A DNA stretch of 23,022 nt from a virus (taxonomy: Duplodnaviria > Heunggongvirae > Uroviricota > Caudoviricetes), in IMG/VR virus record IMGVR_UViG_2698536506_000009; one strand, given 5' to 3'. A model generated the notes under the pieces. It searched no databases. It was given only the letters and a program-made list of their open reading frames with translations, and was not told where the DNA came from. Positions within the stretch are counted from its first letter, which is position 1, and every line of letters starts with the position of its first letter. The position numbers and the translations under genes were made by a program. Positions 20-6,450 of the stretch are shown here, one piece after another.

Positions 20-1315
20 TTAATTTTTCATTGCTTCGTTATGGGGCATGGTTGGGGCAAACTCGCTTAACTGTGTATTTAACAAAGCTACCTGTGCATT
101 ATTGTTTTCAGACATCCATTTTCCGTATACCTGAAATACCATTTGCGCATCTGCATGGCCCATCTGGTTTGCTATAAATGCCGGGTTAGCACCAGCTGTC
201 AGCGACCAGCAGGCATAAGTATGTCTCGACTGATATGATTTTCGATGGCGGAGTCCGGCACGTTTTATCGCTGCGTCCCACATCTGCCTTATTGAGTCAA
301 CGGTAAAATGGTCACCATAATTTTTTACTCTCGCTGACACTTCAGGTTGAAAAACAAAGGTGCATTTTTGTTTTTCTGTTCTGCCATACTCTCTGAGGTG
401 AACATCAATGATATGCTCTTTGCTCAGTCTCGTTAATGTCATCTGACTCCGGAGAGCGTCGATTGCTGGCTTAATAAGATGAATGACCCGATTGGTTCCC
501 GCCTGTGTTTTTGGTACCGTGAAACGGTCTTTTGCTAAATTTCTCCTGATCATCATTGTTCCATTTTTCAGATCTATGTCCTCCCATCCAAGTGCACACA
601 GCTCACCAGGGCGAACTCCAGTATAAACAGAAACACACCATAAATTTTTTGCTTGCTGATTTCTGCACGCATCGATAAGACGGATAAATTCTTCCCGCGA
701 AAGAGGATCCGGAATGGTTCTTGATTCCTTTAATGGCGAGATCCCCTTAAACGGATTATCTGCCAGGTAACCGTTATCAACACCAAACTGGAACACGGCG
801 TTAAGATTTGTCATGTAATTATTTACAGTTACAGCCGATCTCCCTGGTTGTGTAACAATATAGTTACTTTTGGGGATCTGGTATCCAGTCAGTAACTCTT
901 TACGAACCTCCAGTAATTTTTCTTTATTAATCGATGAGGCAAGATTTTTTTCACCGATTATGCTCAGGATATTTTTGATGACGGCACGGTATGTGTTGAG
1001 TGATGTTTTGGCGACTTCAGTTTCTTTCAGTGCCAGAAATTTTTCAGCCAGTTCTTTTATGGTTAAATCTTGTCGGGCCTCACCAAATTTTTCCAGATTG
1101 CGTGAGGAGGGAAACTGTTTTGCATAGTCGAAAACACCAGTTTTTATTGCGTAACAAACAGAGGAGCGTAGTTCACCTGCAACGCGCCTGTTTTTTGCTG
1201 TGTCAGGAACCCCCAGATTTTCCCTGACTCTTACGTCTTTATAAACAAACCAGATACGTAATTTCCCTCCATGGTTTTCCACGCCTGTCGGATATTTCAT
1301 TTCAACTTCTCTCAT
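20..1315 (-). CDS. int: Tyrosine integrase, lambda family (Rac IntR-like)
   Basis: 431-aa ORF whose C-terminal region carries ...RKSYQSRHTYACWSLTAGANP...QMGHA..., which I recognise as the catalytic region of lambda-family integrases. Start may be the second Met (1300). It sits at the prophage end beside an excisionase-like gene. Confidence 0.85.
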   Translation of the reverse strand: MREVEMKYPTGVENHGGKLRIWFVYKDVRVRENLGVPDTAKNRRVAGELRSSVCYAIKTGVFDYAKQFPSSRNLEKFGEARQDLTIKELAEKFLALKETEVAKTSLNTYRAVIKNILSIIGEKNLASSINKEKLLEVRKELLTGYQIPKSNYIVTQPGRSAVTVNNYMTNLNAVFQFGVDNGYLADNPFKGISPLKESRTIPDPLSREEFIRLIDACRNQQAKNLWCVSVYTGVRPGELCALGWEDIDLKNGTMMIRRNLAKDRFTVPKTQAGTNRVIHLIKPAIDALRSQMTLTRLSKEHIIDVHLREYGRTEKQKCTFVFQPEVSARVKNYGDHFTVDSIRQMWDAAIKRAGLRHRKSYQSRHTYACWSLTAGANPAFIANQMGHADAQMVFQVYGKWMSENNNAQVALLNTQLSEFAPTMPHNEAMKN

Positions 1316-1334
1316 TAGTTAGTGTGGCTTTTAG

Positions 1335-1586
1335 TCAAGTAAGATGACGTCTTGGTCTCGCTGATGCCTGGCGCTCAATCCAGCGATCAATTTCTTCCAG
1401 GTTGTAAAAGCATGGACTGTTATCCCATGGCATACCGTCATGAGCGACATGCTTATATTCCCTTTCTTCCATAAACGATTTTTCCCGGGCCTTTTTTAAC
1501 GTACCTTTTTTTATTCCTTTCAGCGCAATTAACTGCTCTTCGGATACCCATTTGCCGGGAGAGACAATCATGATTACTTCGCTCAT
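1335..1586 (-). CDS. xis: Excisionase-like small DNA-binding protein
   Basis: 83-aa basic ORF immediately upstream of and co-oriented with int, the usual xis position. The family call is from memory, not a search. Confidence 0.55.
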   Translation of the reverse strand: MSEVIMIVSPGKWVSEEQLIALKGIKKGTLKKAREKSFMEEREYKHVAHDGMPWDNSPCFYNLEEIDRWIERQASARPRRHLT

Positions 1587-1658
1587 CGATTTCTTTATCT
1601 CTTACATCAGACGAGCGCCGGTTGCAGAATACCAGTCACAACCGGCGACAGTTGAACA

Positions 1659-3680
1659 TTAAGAATCAGCCTGACTCGGGATCAGTTTTTGCCAGATAAC
1701 TGAAACGTATTTTGCCTGGTAACGGGCGTCATCAAGTGCATTATGGCGCTCACCTTCGAATGGAATAGCCGTTCTGGCATCGAAGTCTATGGCTTTCCCC
1801 AGCTCAACGATTGTGCGTACATCGCGATCGTTGTAGTAACGCCACGGGCAGGGGATCCCCTGCCGTTCGTATGAACGGCGCAAAATCGTGTTGTCGAAGT
1901 TGGCTCCATTTCCCCAAACCTGAACAAAAAATTCACCGGAGTTTTCGTCGATAAATTCTCGCAATTGTAACAGTGCATCATCTAACGGGATTTCATCGGT
2001 CATAATGGCAGATTGCGCTTCGCGTGATTGCTTAAGCCACCATTTAATGGTGTCCCGATCAATGACTCCGCCAGCAGTTTCCAGATCGATAGTCTTACTA
2101 AATTCCGGTCCCATATCTCCGGTTTGCGGATCGAAAAATATTGCACCTATTGAGATGATCGGGGCATCAGGATTTTTTCCCATGGTTTCAAGGTCGATCA
2201 TTAGATGGTCACACGTCCTGCTGGTGGATGTGATTTCGTGATGACCGTTCACCTTAATTGGGTGATCTGCCGTCTCGCCAGTTTCATTATCGCTATTGTG
2301 ATGCTGATTGCCGCCAGTGTTCTCCTTGTGTGGATGTTCAGCGCCTTCCATTTCCTCCGGATCATCTTCCTGAACTTCAACCTGATACTCTTCATCGAAT
2401 GTTTCTTGGTATGTTGCGTCGCCCATCACCGCGCCACAATCAGGGCAGTTGCCGCCGCCGGTCTGACCGCAGGCGGTGCAGACTTTTTCCACTTCCTGTT
2501 GCGCTACTGGTTCAGGCTGTTTCGTTTCTGGCTCGTTTTGTAACGCATTTGGACTGTTTTGTTCCGCTTTTTGGTAGTTCCGTTCCGATTCATGCTGGTT
2601 CTGGTTCACAGAATCGCGGGTCTGGAGCCCCTTAACCCATTTCGGATCATTCGGGTCACTAATCCCTTCAACAAATTCACCACGTGATGCAGCAAGCAAC
2701 TTATCGGCGTCAGGCTGGCTGATATTGGCTGCCTGCATAATTTTGTTTACTTCGTCAGCGGTAACTTTTATCGGCTCTGGTTGTTCTGAATCTTCAGCGG
2801 TATCTACATTTTGCGGTAAGCCCGTGTATGTGCCATTTTTTCGGGCAAAATATTCTTCTTTTGTGATTTCAGTGGCGCCAGCAGCCAGTGCCTTATCCAG
2901 ACCAGAGAGTTTGTTTGCGCGACCGTATTTTTCTCCGTCCTTATCTGCGAAGAGGAAATAGAACGGCCCCTCACGCTCTACAGATGGTTCAGCTTCCGGC
3001 GCGGTTTCATTTTTTGGGATATCAGATACCTCAGTTTCCACTGCATCAGTTTGTGTTTCTGATGACTGGAGAACATCAACAGTGCCCAGGTCTGTTTCTT
3101 CATTCTCAAACACGCCCTTTGTCGTCAGGTATTCGCAGATATATTTGTTCAGTGCTACGGGATCTTTGTGAATGTCGATCGGACGCTCACGGACAAGGCC
3201 AAAAATAGTTTGGCGGTCGTAGCGAAGGGCATCAGGCTGTTTGCGCATTGATGCCGAGATACGCTTCCAGTCTTCGCGGTCGTTGTCGATAACTTCTTTT
3301 TTTGCCCAGCGATGGATGCTGCCGTCAATGTTTCCGGCATCCACATCACTAGGCCAGAGAGCGTAGGCCAGTTCGTCATCCAGTGTTTTCCATGTCTGCT
3401 TGTATTCGCGATGAATGGCAGCAATGACCGGGCTGATTTTTCCTGTTGAATTTTCAGTGTACTGTTGATTGGCTCTGGCGCGGGCGAGATCAACAACAGA
3501 CGTGTATTTTCCGGTTTCCTTGCGTTCACCTTCGCGACGTTTTTTCCAGATGCGCATCTCTGCCTGAATTTCGGGCCATTTAGCACCAGGAATACATTTA
3601 TGCTTAACCCACCCAATGGCGTGCAACTTAAGCTCCGGATATTCGAAGTGGACGATGACGCAACACCTGAGGAAATTCAT
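1659..3680 (-). CDS. Multidomain putative 3'-5' exonuclease (DnaQ-like DEDDh C-terminal domain)
   Basis: 673-aa ORF. C-terminus has MIDLETMG, VWGNGANFDNTIL and HNALDDARYQA, consistent with DEDDh exonuclease motifs. The middle is an acidic low-complexity linker with a CxxC-x8-CxxC pair (CTACGQTGGGNCPDCG). The annotated start codon overlaps a plus-strand ATG (CATG at 3678-3681), so the true start may lie downstream, e.g. the Met at 3557. Confidence 0.7.
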   Translation of the reverse strand: MNFLRCCVIVHFEYPELKLHAIGWVKHKCIPGAKWPEIQAEMRIWKKRREGERKETGKYTSVVDLARARANQQYTENSTGKISPVIAAIHREYKQTWKTLDDELAYALWPSDVDAGNIDGSIHRWAKKEVIDNDREDWKRISASMRKQPDALRYDRQTIFGLVRERPIDIHKDPVALNKYICEYLTTKGVFENEETDLGTVDVLQSSETQTDAVETEVSDIPKNETAPEAEPSVEREGPFYFLFADKDGEKYGRANKLSGLDKALAAGATEITKEEYFARKNGTYTGLPQNVDTAEDSEQPEPIKVTADEVNKIMQAANISQPDADKLLAASRGEFVEGISDPNDPKWVKGLQTRDSVNQNQHESERNYQKAEQNSPNALQNEPETKQPEPVAQQEVEKVCTACGQTGGGNCPDCGAVMGDATYQETFDEEYQVEVQEDDPEEMEGAEHPHKENTGGNQHHNSDNETGETADHPIKVNGHHEITSTSRTCDHLMIDLETMGKNPDAPIISIGAIFFDPQTGDMGPEFSKTIDLETAGGVIDRDTIKWWLKQSREAQSAIMTDEIPLDDALLQLREFIDENSGEFFVQVWGNGANFDNTILRRSYERQGIPCPWRYYNDRDVRTIVELGKAIDFDARTAIPFEGERHNALDDARYQAKYVSVIWQKLIPSQADS

Positions 3681-3741
3681 GACGGAGCATAAGAAATTTT
3701 CTTTAACTACTGCAATTACTCATACCACGAAATAAAAGACG

Positions 3742-3933
3742 ATGAGGAAGAACAAAGTGGCTGATTTTTGTTCAGCTAAATATAACATCAGTTTTGAAGA
3801 GCGGGATGAACTATTAATGGACTATGGTGAGTTACGCGGTGGAAGTGCTGCTGATGTCGAATCCTAGCGTGATGACTATGAAGCGGGAAAAACTCCGGTC
3901 GAAGCATATTGTGATGAGTGGGGCGATGAATGA
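3742..3933 (+). pseudogene. Short ORF interrupted by an in-frame TAG (41 codons, TAG at 3865-3867, 21 more codons)
   Basis: Purine-rich sense-like codon usage on the plus strand. The reading frame continues in phase across the TAG to a TGA that overlaps the next ORF start (ATGA). No convincing SD. Function unknown. Confidence 0.3.
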
Positions 3934-4217
3934 GCGAGATTAATTATCAGGAAGGGCATGAAACGGCGGGGCAAGCAAAACCAGTGGCATGGCGATATCG
4001 CTACGTGAAAAAAGGCGTTACGGACTTTCAGGGGAAGTAGTGGTCTGGTGACTGGAAATATGTACCGAAAAAAGAGGATTGTAACGACAGGCCGAACTAT
4101 CAAATTCAGGCCTTATTCACTGCCTCACCAGTCCCAGTTACATCAGAAGAACTGGTTAAAGCTGTGCACTTTTATGAACAACTAAAACGCGAAAATCCAC
4201 CAACATCCGGCAACTAG
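3930..4217 (+). pseudogene. Short ORF interrupted by an in-frame TAG (36 codons, TAG at 4038-4040, 58 more codons)
   Basis: Translation MSEINYQEGHETAGQAKPVAWRYRYVKKGVTDFQGK, stop, WSGDWKYVPKKEDCNDRPNYQIQALFTASPVPVTSEELVKAVHFYEQLKRENPPTSGN. Protein-like composition on both sides of the TAG; the antisense frame is compositionally implausible. Confidence 0.35.
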
Positions 4218-4471
4218 ATTAATGGATTAACTATGTCGGTTAAACGACCAGCCAACTGAAAAAGCGGAAACCTGATTACAGGTTGCCAGATAAGGCAATG
4301 AGCTACCTGGCGCGGAACGGACTGATAAGTATGGGGAATGTTTTACGATGAACCTTTAGACTAAAGAGTTTGTAACGCTATGTAAGTGATTTTTTCTGGT
4401 TTAGATATTTATATGTCCGGCCAAATTGAGGTGTGTTTAAATGTAATTGCACATTGATTGTAGGAGGAATA

Positions 4472-4651
4472 ATGAAAAACGCATTGCAGTTTTTGTTTGT
4501 TGCGTTCTGGTTGTTCGCATCATGTATGCCCATCATCTTCACAGCAAGGTATATGGAAAAAGTTGATGTTTTGATATTAATATTTGGATATATAAATGCC
4601 CTTTTTTTAGGGGTGTTCATGGCGGTCATGTGCATTGAATACTGGCGGTAA
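4472..4651 (+). CDS. Small hydrophobic protein, two predicted transmembrane helices (59 aa)
   Basis: AGGAGG at 4462-4467, 4 nt before the ATG. Sequence MKNALQFLFVAFWLFASCMPIIFTARYMEKVDVLILIFGYINALFLGVFMAVMCIEYWR has two hydrophobic segments separated by a short polar loop. Confidence 0.5.
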   Translation: MKNALQFLFVAFWLFASCMPIIFTARYMEKVDVLILIFGYINALFLGVFMAVMCIEYWR

Positions 4652-4899
4652 ATACAGCGAACTCCATTGGTTTAGTTGGATATTTACTGTGCTGGACAAA
4701 AACGGTTTGCGGGGAAATCTTAGTTAAGTAGAATGACTGCGGGTGCTTGAGGCTATCTGCCTCGGGCATGGACACCAACGGCAGATAGAGAAAAGCCCCA
4801 GTTAACATTACGCGTCCTGCAAGACGCTTAACATTAATCTGAGGCCAATTTCATGCTAGACACATGTAGGTTAGCCTCTTACGTGCCGAAAGGCACGGA

Positions 4900-6450
4900 G
4901 AAGCAGGCTATTGTTAACACCAAGCTGTAATGTCCCCTTTGAACCATTCTAAAATGTCCCCAGACAATTCTCTGGGGGATTTTTCATGATCAAAGAGACT
5001 GTTACGATGAGTCATAAGGAACTCCACCGACTTCAGATTATTCAGGAACAAGCTGCGGCACGCATTGGCATTTCTATTCGGCAGGTTAAACGTCTGGTGC
5101 AACGGTATAGAAATGAAGGGCCTTCTGGTCTGGTTTCCCACCGACGTGGAAAGCGTCCTAATAATTCCTTTTCTACTGAATTCAGAGCAACAGTAATTTC
5201 ACTCCTCAAAGGCCGTTACGCTGATTTTGGACCTACGTTTGCGTGCGAAAAATTGCGCGAGATACACGGTTTATCTTTATCCGTTGAAACTCTCAGAAAG
5301 TGGATGATAGAAGAGGGGTTATGGCGTGAACGCCGTCGTAAAATTGCCCGTATATATCAACGCCGCATGCGACGACCATCTTACGGTGAACTGATCCAGA
5401 TTGATGGCTCACCTCATGACTGGTTTGAAAATCGAGGCCCCAGATGTACACTGATCGTTTTCATTGATGATGCCACCAGTGCGTTGATGGCGTTGCGTTT
5501 TGTGCCTGCTGAAACAACCCGGGCTTACATGGAAACCCTCCGGGGTTACCTTAATGATCATGGCGTACCGCTCGCTCTCTACTCTGATAGACACAGTATA
5601 TTCAGGGTAAATAACCCAGAGCGGGAAGGTGAGCTGACCCAGTTCACTCGTGCGATAAAGACACTGGGCATCGAGCCAATCCATGCCAACAGCCCGCAGG
5701 CAAAAGGGCGGGTAGAGCGCGCCAATCAGACACTACAGGACAGGCTGGTCAAAGAAATGCGGCTTCAGAATATCAGTGATATTGAAACAGCAAATGCATG
5801 GTTGCCGACCTTTATTGAAGCCTATAACAACCGGTTCGCTACGTCGCCTCGTACTACTGATAATGCTCATCTTGATGTGCACCATTCTGAAGAGGAACTG
5901 GGTTATATCTTCAGCCTACAGGCGAAGCGCGTTCTGTCTAAAAATCTCACTTTCCAGTACAAAAGCAGTGCGTTTCAGGTACGCAGTGAGGGCCGGGGAT
6001 ATCGACTTAGGCATTCGGTTGTTACTGTATGCGAGAACTTTGACGGTGAAATTAACGTTCTGTATGACGGGAAAGCGCTGGGCTGGGAAAAGTATGTTGA
6101 TGGCCCGGAGCCTATACCACTGGATGATGAAAAGAGTGTCCATGAACGAGTGGATAATGCCCGTATTGATTTACGCTCAAAATACTATGTTAAACCTAAA
6201 GCTGACCATCCCTGGCTTACGCGCCGAACGCAAAGTCATCAGCAAGTTAAGCCCCCGAAGTTACCTAAAAAGAAGCCTGATCCCGATAAAAAAGATTGAA
6301 ACCAAGATCGATTCGGTTGAGTGCATATCCATTCATAGGGTAGATTCTTAAGTCGCGTTTCTGGTGTTCATTTTCGGGTGGTTTGTTACTTGTTTTACCG
6401 GGGATATGCCAGAAACGCGCTGAGTCAGTCTGGGCGGTGCGCGTAATGAG
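4900..6450 (+). mobile_element. Insertion sequence carrying the rve transposase (boundaries approximate)
   Basis: Single transposase ORF flanked by non-coding sequence. I could not identify terminal inverted repeats or a target duplication by eye; only an 8-bp AGGCTATT / AATAGCCT pair (about 4903 and 6462), which could be chance. Confidence 0.3.
4986..6299 (+). CDS. DDE transposase with retroviral-integrase-like (rve) core and N-terminal HTH
   Basis: 437-aa ORF with an N-terminal HTH-like region (RIGISIRQVKRLVQRY), candidate catalytic D in IQIDGS, D in LYSDRHSIF, and the rve hallmark NSPQAKGRVERANQTLQ. Family (IS481-like or ISNCY-like) not resolved. Confidence 0.85.
   Translation: MIKETVTMSHKELHRLQIIQEQAAARIGISIRQVKRLVQRYRNEGPSGLVSHRRGKRPNNSFSTEFRATVISLLKGRYADFGPTFACEKLREIHGLSLSVETLRKWMIEEGLWRERRRKIARIYQRRMRRPSYGELIQIDGSPHDWFENRGPRCTLIVFIDDATSALMALRFVPAETTRAYMETLRGYLNDHGVPLALYSDRHSIFRVNNPEREGELTQFTRAIKTLGIEPIHANSPQAKGRVERANQTLQDRLVKEMRLQNISDIETANAWLPTFIEAYNNRFATSPRTTDNAHLDVHHSEEELGYIFSLQAKRVLSKNLTFQYKSSAFQVRSEGRGYRLRHSVVTVCENFDGEINVLYDGKALGWEKYVDGPEPIPLDDEKSVHERVDNARIDLRSKYYVKPKADHPWLTRRTQSHQQVKPPKLPKKKPDPDKKD

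What the first reader, a model, noticed from the sequence alone, without database searches (positions are those of the whole stretch)
1659..3680. Large exonuclease with DEDDh domain, zinc ribbon and acidic linker next to int-xis
This is not a RecE/lambda-Exo type nuclease but a DnaQ-like 3'-5' exonuclease fused to an about 200-aa N-terminal domain, a long acidic linker and a CxxC-x8-CxxC motif. It may be the intact form of a gene that is only a fragment in K-12. Its function in a prophage is unclear.
Basis: partly seen in the sequence, partly recalled or inferred. Interest (0 to 1): 0.5.

Follow-up and report, generated by a model that had tools for sequence, protein, structure and literature searches.

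The report
Truncated prophage DEDDh exonuclease gene remnant
The open reading frame is real and does end in an intact 3'-5' exonuclease domain, but it is the beheaded remnant (first 163 codons and promoter deleted) of a very common, already annotated E. coli prophage gene that combines the non-catalytic body of RecE with a T4-DexA-type nuclease.

Summary
The ORF at 1659-3680 (-), 673 aa, exists and lies next to xis and int in a Qin-type defective prophage at the rspB/ydfJ site. Its C-terminus is a clear Rv2179c/DexA-type DEDDh domain (Pfam E 1.9e-67) with all five catalytic residues: D496, E498, D596, H646, D651. The Cys motif is real but is CxxC-x7-CxxC, not x8. The linker is acidic (net -16).

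First, this is not the intact form. The intact gene encodes 823 aa. Here a 5.5-kb deletion (junction 3640/3641) removed the immunity region, the operon's promoter and codons 1-163. The ATG at 3680 and the first 13 residues come from unrelated DNA. PGAP calls the same remnant a pseudogene. K-12 ydfE is the complementary N-terminal fragment.

Second, it is related to RecE. Residues 112-475 match RecE 278-591, about 80% identical over the zinc motif and linker. Only the nuclease cassette differs, and the DEDDh form never has a RecT neighbour.

The gene region is present in 4767 of 5426 complete E. coli genomes. It is ordinary and already annotated. The modular RecE-scaffold swap is a modestly interesting side result.

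The parts
1659..3641 (-). Remnant of the ydfE-family exonuclease gene, covering codons 164-823 of the intact 823-codon gene plus the stop. This equals residues 14-673 of the window ORF.
   Evidence: It is identical residue for residue to aa 164-823 of the phage PhiR42_1 protein. DNA homology with intact copies ends at 3641. PGAP marks the same stretch as a pseudogene 'missing N-terminus'.
3642..3680 (-). Fortuitous ATG plus 13 codons (MNFLRCCVIVHFE) read from DNA on the far side of the deletion. This is not part of the gene family.
   Evidence: There is no similarity to the intact protein. This DNA is colinear with a region about 5.5 kb away in phage PhiR42_1. No Shine-Dalgarno sequence is visible upstream.
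3640..3641 (.). Deletion junction with TA microhomology. About 5.5 kb is missing compared with the intact phage, and a further 915 bp is missing compared with the commoner exo::DUF977 allele.
   Evidence: define the junction. None of 5426 complete genomes has this junction and 90 have the exo::DUF977 junction. The exact ORF is present in at least 4 draft assemblies.
3516..3641 (-). The surviving C-terminal third (ORF aa 14-55) of a helical domain that spans aa 101-205 of the intact protein. The deletion cut through this domain.
   Evidence: AF2 model of the intact protein gives pLDDT above 90 for aa 101-205. AF2 of the window fragment agrees.
3111..3410 (-). Complete about 100-aa helical domain (ORF aa 91-190, Pfam YdfE_C region), homologous to RecE from about aa 278 to 350.
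2835..2966 (-). Small beta-hairpin and helix domain (ORF aa 239-282, FYFLFADKDGEKYGR...). It falls in a gap of the RecE alignment, so K-12 RecE lacks it.
   Evidence: AF2 pLDDT is about 90. The RecE alignment has a gap here.
2264..2706 (-). Module shared with Rac recE at the DNA level: the DPNDPKWVKG helices, the Cys motif and the acidic linker. It is the likely crossover zone for exchange of the 3' nuclease cassette.
   Evidence: blastn to K-12 recE gives 78% identity over 443 bp, and megablast pieces give 86%. The protein is about 80% identical over this stretch.
2436..2480 (-). CxxC-x7-CxxC motif (C401, C404, C412, C415), a possible zinc knuckle inside the linker.
   Evidence: locates the motif. 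It is conserved in K-12 RecE but present in only 4 of 29 diverse long homologues. AF2 confidence is low, pLDDT about 46-68.
2211..2435 (-). Acidic, His-rich disordered linker (ORF aa 416-490, net charge -16).
   Evidence: Composition. AF2 pLDDT is below 50.
1692..2207 (-). DEDDh 3'-5' exonuclease domain (ORF aa 492-663) with catalytic residues D496, E498, D596, H646 and D651.
   Evidence: Pfam PF16473 E 1.9e-67. Alignment with T4 DexA. AF2 pLDDT above 95 and Foldseek to DexA 8KEN with E 3e-10, followed by RNase T, Orn and Cap18.
1335..1586 (-). Excisionase gene directly downstream.
   Evidence: Pfam PF06806.
20..1315 (-). Tyrosine integrase gene at the prophage end next to rspB.
   Evidence: Pfam Phage_integrase.

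Best explanation
SHOWN: The ORF is the 3' four-fifths of a ydfE-family gene. This is the last early-left-operon gene before xis-int in Qin-type and other lambdoid prophages of E. coli. The intact product is 823 aa. It has a RecE-like non-catalytic body: YdfE_N, helical YdfE_C domains, long acidic disordered linkers and, in the Escherichia lineage, a four-Cys knuckle. That body carries a C-terminal DEDDh exonuclease of the Rv2179c/T4-DexA family in place of RecE's PD-(D/E)XK domain.

SHOWN: In this window a deletion with a junction at 3640/3641 removed the repressor and replication region, dicB, ydfD, the operon's promoter and codons 1-163. It cut a folded helical domain in half. The apparent ATG at 3680 is accidental.

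INFERRED: The remnant is most likely silent. It has no promoter-like site and no ribosome-binding site. The nuclease domain is undamaged, so it would probably be active if it were ever made.

INFERRED from homology, for the intact protein: The C-terminal domain removes nucleotides from free 3'-OH ends by two-metal catalysis. The substrate is most likely DNA, as for T4 DexA. The RecE-type body does the same still-unknown targeting or assembly job as in RecE. The DEDDh cassette travels with xis-int and has been exchanged for the 'RecE nuclease + recT' cassette by recombination inside the shared zinc-motif and linker module. It therefore works without an annealase and is not a two-component recombinase. 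Among the possible roles, I favour DNA-end degradation, meaning scavenging or attack on incoming or competing DNA, over recombination initiation.
For: Identity and truncation:
- The ORF is identical to aa 164-823 of the 823-aa protein of inducible phage PhiR42_1, and the gene is intact in strain DLI.5a.
- The PHROG 2082 profile (823 positions) is matched only from position 163 onward.
- DNA colinearity breaks at 3641 and resumes 5.5 kb away in the phage.
- PGAP annotates the remnant as a pseudogene.
- The precomputed Pfam record for the exact ORF shows YdfE_C and Rv2179c-like but no YdfE_N.
- K-12 ydfE equals aa 1-256 of the same gene, cut by IS2E.

Silence:
- There are 0 sigma-70-like sites in 1300-4900, against 4.7 expected.
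- No SD precedes the ATG at 3680 or M494.

Nuclease:
- Pfam E 1.9e-67.
- The catalytic pentad is conserved.
- T4 DexA belongs to the same Pfam family.
- Foldseek's best hits are DexA 8KEN/8KEL, followed by RNase T, Orn/REXO2 and Cap18.
- The domain is 39% identical (E 2e-38) to the EcD-like prophage enzyme. PMC12153337 reports DNA exonuclease activity for DexA and EcD.

RecE body and cassette swap:
- The NCBIfam RecE profile is matched at positions 271-600, and BLASTP to K-12 RecE gives E 4e-63.
- Natural chimeras exist. P0123 is RecE 1-270 at 99.6% identity plus a DEDDh domain 98% identical to this one. P0141 and P0162 have a YdfE-type body with a RecE-type nuclease.

Neighbour pattern:
- The DEDDh form abuts xis-int with no annealase in the window, PhiR42_1, DLI.5a, L006, L035/L036 and L038.
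- ST64B sb30 has the stand-alone domain in the same position.
- The PD-(D/E)XK form P0141 is followed by a RecT-family gene, E 2e-36.
Against: - The 660 homologous codons carry no stop or frameshift and are identical to those of a functional phage. Decay has not begun, and read-through transcription from upstream cannot be excluded. No expression data were available.
- Substrate choice is not settled. The family's founding member Rv2179c is described as an exoribonuclease and a divergent RNase T orthologue (cited in PMC8628891; I could not read the primary paper).
- The role of the RecE-type body is unknown even for RecE (PMC11611040). Fold search of that region found nothing.
- The neighbour pattern rests on seven loci, not a census.
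- I identified the published EcD from its primer sequences and the reported A78, not from its accession.
Confidence: 0.85

Rival explanations
1. The ORF is an intact, full-length gene that starts at ATG 3680. It encodes a novel exonuclease with its own 200-aa N-terminal domain and represents the complete version of a K-12 fragment.
For: The 673-codon frame is uninterrupted. Gene callers in some draft assemblies report exactly this 673-aa product.
Against: - The first 13 residues have no counterpart in any homologue, and homology starts at residue 14, which is residue 164 of the 823-aa protein.
- The DNA upstream of 3641 belongs to a different part of the phage.
- 3790 of 5426 complete genomes carry a copy that is continuous across this point.
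- PGAP annotates the remnant as a pseudogene.
- The truncation cuts a confidently predicted domain in half.
Confidence: 0.02
2. The truncated gene is still expressed and useful. An N-terminally shortened protein, or the nuclease domain alone, would be made by read-through or from a weak promoter. It would act as a prophage-encoded 3'-5' DNA exonuclease that protects the host against phages with modified DNA, as reported for the DexA homologue EcD (the 'HREX' strategy).
For: - The catalytic domain is fully intact.
- Stand-alone homologues of only about 190 aa exist and begin at the position of M494.
- EcD on a plasmid was reported to protect against T4 and to digest 5hmC-containing DNA (PMC12153337, sections 26-27).
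- The truncated allele family is kept in at least 90 complete genomes without further damage to the frame.
- The RecE nuclease domain alone can substitute genetically for full-length RecE (PMC11611040).
Against: - No promoter-like site or SD was found.
- There is no hit to any PADLOC defence model.
- Identity to the EcD-like protein is only 39%.
- Of the two residues reported to read 5hmC, DexA W152 aligns with Y616 and D169 aligns with A630, in a poorly aligned loop.
- DexA D90, whose loss is said to make EcD 5hmC-specific, aligns with D568 here.
- The defence claim itself rests on a single study that used plasmid expression.
Confidence: 0.1
3. The intact protein is a recombination or repair exonuclease that resects or trims 3' ends for the phage. 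It would be a RecE analogue of opposite polarity that uses host or distant phage annealases.
For: - It occupies the exo/recE slot of the early-left operon next to xis-int.
- It shares the RecE body.
- The same body is also found fused to a third C-terminal module that gives sub-threshold Rad52/Rad22 annealase hits in 4 proteins, E 0.017-0.12. This hints that the body is a recombination scaffold.
- Full-length RecE is better than the nuclease domain alone in linear-linear recombination (PMC11611040).
Against: - No annealase gene lies beside any DEDDh-type member examined.
- 3'-5' digestion destroys the 3' tails that single-strand annealing needs.
- The Rad52 hits are below threshold, and a profile search of the PDB did not support them.
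Confidence: 0.2
4. The domain is an exoribonuclease, like Rv2179c, RNase T or Orn, that trims RNA 3' ends or degrades short oligoribonucleotides during phage development.
For: - The Pfam family is named for the Rv2179c exoribonuclease.
- Structural neighbours after DexA are RNase T, oligoribonuclease/REXO2, ERI and 3'hExo.
- PGAP names it '3'-5' exoribonuclease domain-containing protein'.
Against: - The closest solved relative by sequence and by fold is the DNA exonuclease DexA.
- The characterised phage and E. coli relatives act on DNA (PMC12153337).
- It is fused to the body of a DNA exonuclease.
- DEDDh enzymes such as RNase T cut both nucleic acids, so the family name carries little weight.
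Confidence: 0.15

Closest known systems
E. coli K-12 ydfE (b1577, Qin prophage pseudogene) and its intact 823-aa alleles. RefSeq annotates these as '3'-5' exonuclease', 'exonuclease' or '3'-5' exoribonuclease domain-containing protein'. Their Pfam architecture is YdfE_N + YdfE_C + Rv2179c-like.
   Same: It is the same gene at the same chromosomal site (rspB side of Qin) and in the same operon position before xis-int. The window copy is 100% identical to PhiR42_1 over aa 164-823. K-12 ydfE is identical over the stretch it shares with the intact gene.
   Different: The window copy lacks codons 1-163 and YdfE_N. K-12 lacks everything after codon 256 because of IS2E. The window's deletion junction is not found in any of 5426 complete genomes.
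RecE (exodeoxyribonuclease VIII) of the Rac prophage.
   Same: The central body is homologous: RecE 278-591 against intact-protein aa 262-625, E 4e-63. This includes an about 80% identical stretch with the DPNDPKWVKG helices, the CxxC-x7-CxxC motif and the acidic linker. The join to the nuclease lies at the same place where the RecE nuclease domain begins. The operon slot is the same.
   Different: The catalytic domain is DEDDh (3'-5') instead of PD-(D/E)XK (5'-3'). There is no Exonuc_VIII N-terminal domain (PF06630), and YdfE_N takes its place. There is no adjacent recT. The score is far below the RecE equivalog cutoff, 283 against 1269 bits.
Bacteriophage T4 DexA (PDB 8KEL/8KEN) and the E. 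coli DexA homologue EcD ('HREX', PMC12153337).
   Same: They share Pfam family PF16473, the same catalytic pentad and the best fold match. The window domain is 39% identical to the EcD-like 189-aa prophage protein.
   Different: DexA and EcD are stand-alone proteins of about 190-227 aa, whereas here the domain is the C-terminus of a large RecE-like protein. The residues reported for 5hmC recognition and for tetramer control are not clearly conserved. The EcD-like gene sits in a P2-like prophage and is rare, in 31 of 5426 genomes.
Salmonella phage ST64B Sb30 and similar stand-alone Rv2179c-like exonucleases of temperate phages.
   Same: Sb30 is 57-58% identical to the window's C-terminal domain. 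It lies in the same position, directly upstream of xis and int.
   Different: It has no RecE/YdfE body, no linker and no Cys motif.
Mycobacterium tuberculosis Rv2179c, the founding member of PF16473.
   Same: It shares the Pfam family and the DEDDh chemistry.
   Different: It is a chromosomal stand-alone protein described as an exoribonuclease and RNase T-like (PMC8628891, citing Abendroth et al. 2014). It did not appear among the top sequence or fold matches here.

Membership tests
Pfam PF16473 Rv2179c-like / DEDDh (DnaQ-like) 3'-5' exonucleases | Profile match above the curated gathering score | tested here: met
   226.8 bits against a cutoff of 27, E 1.9e-67, covering profile positions 2-177 of 177.
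Pfam PF16473 Rv2179c-like / DEDDh (DnaQ-like) 3'-5' exonucleases | Catalytic residues of motifs I (DxE), II (D) and III (H-x4-D) | tested here: met
   D496, E498, D596, H646 and D651 align with DexA D7, E9, D119, H186 and D191. They are conserved in 85-90 of 106 aligned sequences.
Pfam PF16473 Rv2179c-like / DEDDh (DnaQ-like) 3'-5' exonucleases | RNase H-like exonuclease fold | tested here: met
   AF2 pLDDT is above 95 for the domain. Foldseek gives DexA 8KEN E 3e-10, TM (target) 0.65-0.72, followed by RNase T and Orn.
Pfam PF16473 Rv2179c-like / DEDDh (DnaQ-like) 3'-5' exonucleases | Metal-dependent 3'-5' exonuclease activity, and its substrate (DNA or RNA) | not testable with these tools
   This needs an enzyme assay.
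RecE / exodeoxyribonuclease VIII (NCBIfam NF007259 equivalog) | Whole-protein score above the equivalog cutoff | tested here: not met
   282.9 bits against a cutoff of 1269. Only profile positions 271-600 are matched.
RecE / exodeoxyribonuclease VIII (NCBIfam NF007259 equivalog) | C-terminal PD-(D/E)XK nuclease domain (PF12684) | tested here: not met
   The domain is absent from the window protein and present in K-12 RecE.
RecE / exodeoxyribonuclease VIII (NCBIfam NF007259 equivalog) | N-terminal Exonuc_VIII domain (PF06630) | tested here: not met
   There is no hit in the window protein. Precomputed Pfam domains of the intact P0001 list YdfE_N (PF27430) and no PF06630.
RecE / exodeoxyribonuclease VIII (NCBIfam NF007259 equivalog) | Central non-catalytic region with the Cys motif and acidic linker | tested here: met
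   BLASTP E 4e-63 overall, and about 80% identity over RecE 455-591.
RecE / exodeoxyribonuclease VIII (NCBIfam NF007259 equivalog) | Partner annealase gene (recT) immediately downstream | tested here: not met
   xis follows directly in the window and in six related loci. Rac has recT in this position.
YdfE family (YdfE_N + YdfE_C + nuclease) | YdfE_C domain (PF27432) | tested here: met
   The precomputed Pfam record for the exact window ORF lists it. This family is not in the local Pfam copy that I could scan myself.
YdfE family (YdfE_N + YdfE_C + nuclease) | YdfE_N domain (PF27430) and the native start codon | tested here: not met
   It is missing from the window ORF but present in 823-aa members. 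The alignment shows aa 1-163 absent. The window copy is therefore a fragment of a member, not a complete member.
HREX (5hmC-DNA-specific DexA-like exonucleases, PMC12153337) | Homology to DexA and EcD with catalytic residues intact | tested here: met
   The identity of the EcD sequence was inferred from the primer sequences and A78.
HREX (5hmC-DNA-specific DexA-like exonucleases, PMC12153337) | Residues reported to read 5hmC (DexA W152, D169), and loss of the tetramer residue D90 | tested here: inconclusive
   W152 aligns with Y616. D169 aligns with A630 in a variable loop. D90 aligns with D568. The alignment is weak in these regions.
HREX (5hmC-DNA-specific DexA-like exonucleases, PMC12153337) | Selective digestion of modified DNA and protection from T-even phages | not testable with these tools
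   This needs enzyme and plaque assays.
Known anti-phage defence systems (PADLOC-DB 2.0) | Match to any defence protein model | tested here: not met
   0 families at E up to 0.01.

The most novel reading that the evidence does not exclude
The RecE/YdfE non-catalytic body could be a general, exchangeable 'carrier' that lambdoid prophages load with alternative DNA-end modules. The modules seen here are a 5'-3' PD-(D/E)XK nuclease (always with RecT), a 3'-5' DexA-type nuclease (never with an annealase) and at least one further module that may be a Rad52-like annealase. The DEDDh-loaded version would then be a widespread prophage weapon against incoming or modified DNA, not a recombinase. If so, the long-unknown function of the RecE N-terminal 600 residues would be independent of resection polarity and of RecT loading. 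It could be studied through these natural chimeras.
Probability: 0.15. Interest if true: 0.55.

Novelty: already known. Interest (0 to 1): 0.22.

Why it matters
For this window it matters mainly as a correction. The ORF should be annotated as a 5'-truncated pseudogene of the ydfE-family exonuclease, not as an intact novel enzyme.

The family itself is uncharacterised experimentally despite its abundance. It is present in 4767 of 5426 complete E. coli genomes, often in several copies.

The side result is more useful. The RecE body occurs in nature with nucleases of opposite polarity, with and without RecT. This gives a ready-made set of chimeras for asking what the RecE N-terminal region does. 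It also raises the testable possibility that a very common prophage gene is a DexA-like DNA-degrading or defence function.

Tried and rejected
- **Assembly artefact.** I asked whether the junction was an assembly or window artefact. I rejected this because the exact 673-aa ORF with the same neighbours occurs in at least 4 independent draft assemblies.
- **Defence models.** PADLOC gave no hits.
- **Rad52-like third module.** I tested whether the third C-terminal module found on YdfE-type bodies is a Rad52-like annealase. Pfam hits are sub-threshold. A PDB profile search found nothing. tblastn shows only stand-alone phage homologues with vague names. The question is left open.
- **Literature.** Nothing functional was found on ydfE. 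The Rv2179c primary paper is not held. One literature search was wasted on 'RecE' matching 'receptor'.
- **Internal start at M494.** This is where stand-alone homologues begin. The nearest AGGA is 14 nt upstream, too far to serve as an SD.
- **Zinc ribbon as a defining feature.** I rejected this because the motif is present in only 4 of 29 diverse long homologues and is modelled with low confidence.
Full report
**Where the window comes from**

The window is a Qin-type defective lambdoid prophage of E. coli, inserted between rspB and ydfJ. Megablast of the whole window, and of its first 6.5 kb, finds near-identical DNA in hundreds of complete E. coli genomes. The annotated neighbours are those of Qin: integrase, excisionase, relBE, hokD, rem, ydfU, cspB/F/I, rrrQ, nohA, pinQ and ydfK.

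**Checking the observation**

- An uninterrupted ORF of 673 codons lies at 1659..3680 on the minus strand.
- Excisionase (1335..1586) and integrase (20..1315) follow directly on the same strand.
- Residues 492-663 match Pfam PF16473 (Rv2179c-like 3'-5' exonuclease) at 226.8 bits against a cutoff of 27, E 1.9e-67. A weak match to RNase_T is also present.
- In an alignment with T4 DexA, Salmonella phage ST64B Sb30 and five diverse stand-alone relatives, D496, E498, D596, H646 and D651 are invariant. They correspond to DexA D7, E9, D119, H186 and D191.
- In a 106-sequence alignment these residues are kept in 85-90 sequences. The remaining sequences lack the domain.
- The Cys motif is CTACGQTGGGNCPDC at residues 401-415.
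- Residues 416-490 contain 19 D/E, 3 K/R and 7 His, giving a net charge of -16.

The listed features are therefore real.

**The ORF is not a complete gene**

- PHROG 2082, an 823-position 'exonuclease' profile, is matched only from position 163 onward.
- The inducible phage PhiR42_1 from ECOR13, and strain DLI.5a, carry an 823-aa protein at the same place.
- The window ORF is identical to residues 164-823 of the PhiR42_1 protein. Its first 13 residues (MNFLRCCVIVHFE) match nothing.
- At the DNA level, homology with the gene stops at 3641. From 3640 the window continues with DNA that lies about 5.5 kb away in the phage.
- The deletion removed the DUF977 and methyltransferase genes, the O-like replication gene, the cII/cro/cI-type regulators, ydfA-C, dicB, ydfD and the first 489 nt of the exonuclease gene.
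- PGAP annotates the same remnant in strains with identical DNA as a pseudogene, 'incomplete; missing N-terminus'.
- No sigma-70-like promoter is found between 1300 and 4900 on either strand, 0 against 4.7 expected.
- No Shine-Dalgarno sequence precedes the ATG at 3680 or the internal Met494, where stand-alone homologues begin.
- The exact 673-aa ORF with the same neighbours is present in at least four draft assemblies, so the junction is natural.

**Relation to K-12**

The K-12 pseudogene ydfE (b1577) is the same gene. It is identical over its first 256 codons and is then cut by IS2E. K-12 keeps the head and this window keeps the body and tail. Neither copy is intact.

**Census in 5426 complete E. 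coli genomes**

| Feature | Genomes |
|---|---|
| Any match to the gene region | 4767 (median 2 places, up to 9) |
| At least one copy continuous across the breakpoint | 3790 |
| Related exo::DUF977 deletion junction | 90 |
| The window's own junction | 0 |

**What the protein is**

The non-catalytic part is RecE-like.

- ORF residues 96-473 hit the NCBIfam RecE equivalog profile at positions 271-600 of 877. The score of 283 bits is far below the cutoff of 1269.
- BLASTP of the intact protein against K-12 RecE aligns residues 262-625 with RecE 278-591, E 4e-63. About 80% of residues are identical from DADKLLAASRGEFV through the Cys motif and the acidic linker.
- The similarity ends just where RecE's nuclease domain begins.
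- The shared module is also similar at the DNA level: window 2264-2706 against K-12 recE, 78% over 443 bp by blastn and 86% in megablast pieces.

The 'zinc ribbon and acidic linker' are therefore RecE features, not distinguishing ones.

**Evidence for cassette exchange**

I searched 1.84 billion representative proteins with the intact protein and then dissected the hits by module.

- P0123 (805 aa) is RecE 1-270 at 99.6% identity, joined to a DEDDh domain 98% identical to this one.
- P0141 and P0162 have the YdfE-type body joined to a RecE-type PD-(D/E)XK domain.

Both kinds of N-terminus thus occur with both kinds of nuclease.

The neighbours differ in a consistent way.

- In the window, PhiR42_1, DLI.5a, the P0123 locus and two further enterobacterial loci, the DEDDh form is followed directly by xis and int.
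- In ST64B the stand-alone domain Sb30 occupies the same position.
- In Rac, recE is followed by recT.
- The YdfE-type protein with a PD-(D/E)XK domain is followed by a RecT-family gene, Pfam E 2e-36.

I infer that the DEDDh domain travels as a cassette with xis-int. I also infer that it has replaced 'RecE nuclease + recT' by recombination within the shared linker module.

**Structure**

AlphaFold2 of the intact protein with 106 aligned sequences gives the following.

| Intact residues | Prediction |
|---|---|
| 101-205 | Helical domain, confidently folded |
| 241-340 | Helical domain, pLDDT 94-98 |
| 389-432 | Small beta-hairpin and helix unit |
| 641-820 | Exonuclease domain, pLDDT above 95 |
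| 65-98, 349-384, 438-456, 502-547, 568-636 | Long disordered stretches |
| Cys motif (551-565) | Modelled with low confidence |

- The window's deletion endpoint, at intact residue 164, cuts the first helical domain in half.
- Foldseek against the PDB places the C-terminal domain next to T4 DexA (8KEN, E 3e-10). RNase T, oligoribonuclease/REXO2 and the CBASS exonuclease Cap18 follow.
- The Cys motif occurs in only 4 of 29 diverse long homologues. It is a lineage-specific insert in the linker, not a hallmark of the family.

**Function**

- T4 DexA is a member of the same Pfam family and is the only solved relative detectable by sequence.
- A 2025 paper (PMC12153337) reports that DexA is a 3'-5' DNA exonuclease. 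It also reports that an E. coli homologue, EcD, digests 5hmC-containing T4 DNA and protects cells from T4 when expressed from a plasmid.
- Using the EcD primer sequences from that paper's supplement, I recovered a 189-aa protein with Ala at position 78, as the paper reports for EcD.
- That protein is 39% identical to the window's domain, E 2e-38.
- It lies in the early operon of a P2-like prophage in 31 of 5426 genomes.
- The residues said to read 5hmC are not clearly conserved here: W152 aligns with Y616, and D169 aligns with A630 in a variable loop.
- DexA D90, whose loss is said to make EcD selective, aligns with D568.
- PADLOC finds no defence model.
- The family's founding member Rv2179c is described as an RNase T-like exoribonuclease (PMC8628891). 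I could not read the primary paper.
- The role of the RecE N-terminal region is unknown. A 2023 review states only that full-length RecE improves linear-linear recombination (PMC11611040).

**Most likely mechanism**

For the intact protein, I commit to a two-metal DEDDh exonuclease that removes nucleotides from free 3' ends, most probably of DNA. It is tethered by flexible acidic linkers to a RecE-type body that provides targeting or assembly. It works without a dedicated annealase, so it is a DNA-degrading function and not a two-component recombinase.

I put about 0.95 on 'truncated remnant of a ydfE-family gene'. The figure is about 0.85 for '3'-5' exonuclease chemistry', about 0.6 for 'DNA is the main substrate', and about 0.7 for 'silent in this window'. 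The biological role (scavenging or defence against end processing for recombination) is inferred, not shown.

**Comparison with what is known, and novelty**

- The gene is annotated in RefSeq as '3'-5' exonuclease', 'exonuclease' or '3'-5' exoribonuclease domain-containing protein'.
- It has its own Pfam domain families, YdfE_N and YdfE_C.
- It fails the membership tests for RecE: no PD-(D/E)XK domain, no Exonuc_VIII domain, a score below the cutoff and no recT neighbour.
- It passes the tests for the DEDDh/PF16473 family.
- As a fragment, it is an incomplete YdfE-family member.

Nothing here is new as an entity. I did not find the combinatorial use of the RecE/YdfE body described in the searchable literature, and it is a modestly interesting lead.

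**Verdict**

The sequence features are real. The ORF is an ordinary, already annotated prophage pseudogene. Interest is low.

Noticed in passing
window 3640-3641; L001:6641-7556: The window's deletion shares its left endpoint, to the nucleotide, with the commoner exo::DUF977 deletion allele found in 90 complete genomes. It removes a further 915 bp (DUF977 remnant, a SAM methyltransferase gene and part of a DUF7167 pseudogene) immediately to the right of that old junction. A short imperfect repeat (GGATA / GGATGTA) lies at the two ends of the missing piece. Two nested deletions with the same endpoint are unlikely by chance, and the cause is unexplained.
   Followed up: partly
related proteins P0137, P0151, P0156, P0179, P0222 (C-terminal about 280 aa); phage hits H95-H124: The YdfE-type body also occurs fused to a third C-terminal module that is neither DEDDh nor PD-(D/E)XK. 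Four of these proteins give sub-threshold Pfam Rad52_Rad22 (annealase) hits at the same profile region, E 0.017-0.12. A PDB profile search found nothing. Stand-alone homologues of about 190 aa are common in Pseudomonas and Vibrio phages, where they are annotated as hypothetical protein, DNA binding protein, DNA repair protein or 'exonuclease'. P0129 carries yet another unknown C-terminus (PHROG 26058).
   Followed up: partly
L041:5989-6570 (E. coli S1-CAM-02-A); L029:5679-6248: I take this gene to be the published anti-T4 exonuclease EcD (PMC12153337). The match to the forward primer is exact, the reverse primer is one base off, and residue 78 is Ala. It lies in the early operon of a P2-like prophage, between the repressor/cox-like genes and a Dam methylase and replication endonuclease. 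It is present in only 31 of 5426 complete E. coli genomes. The paper does not describe it as prophage-borne.
   Followed up: partly
window 4741-4912 (+) and 4986-6299 (+): An Rfam sok antitoxin RNA match (104 bits against a gathering score of 59) lies just upstream of an ISNCY-family transposase ORF of 437 aa. In strains with identical DNA, PGAP calls the adjacent coding region frameshifted and the transposase C-terminally incomplete. This suggests a degraded hok/sok locus next to an IS remnant.
   Followed up: no
window 11758-12150 (+), 14660-15045 (+), 19482-19680 (+): There are two cspA-type thermoregulator leaders, presumably those of the Qin cold-shock genes cspB and cspI. There is also the small RNA family IS009. 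All three score above the Rfam gathering thresholds.
   Followed up: no
window 1300-4900, both strands: The consensus scan finds no sigma-70-like promoter at all in 3.6 kb, against 4.7 +/- 2.2 expected from shuffles. This fits loss of the early promoters with the deleted immunity region.
   Followed up: no
[not shown]
   Followed up: partly
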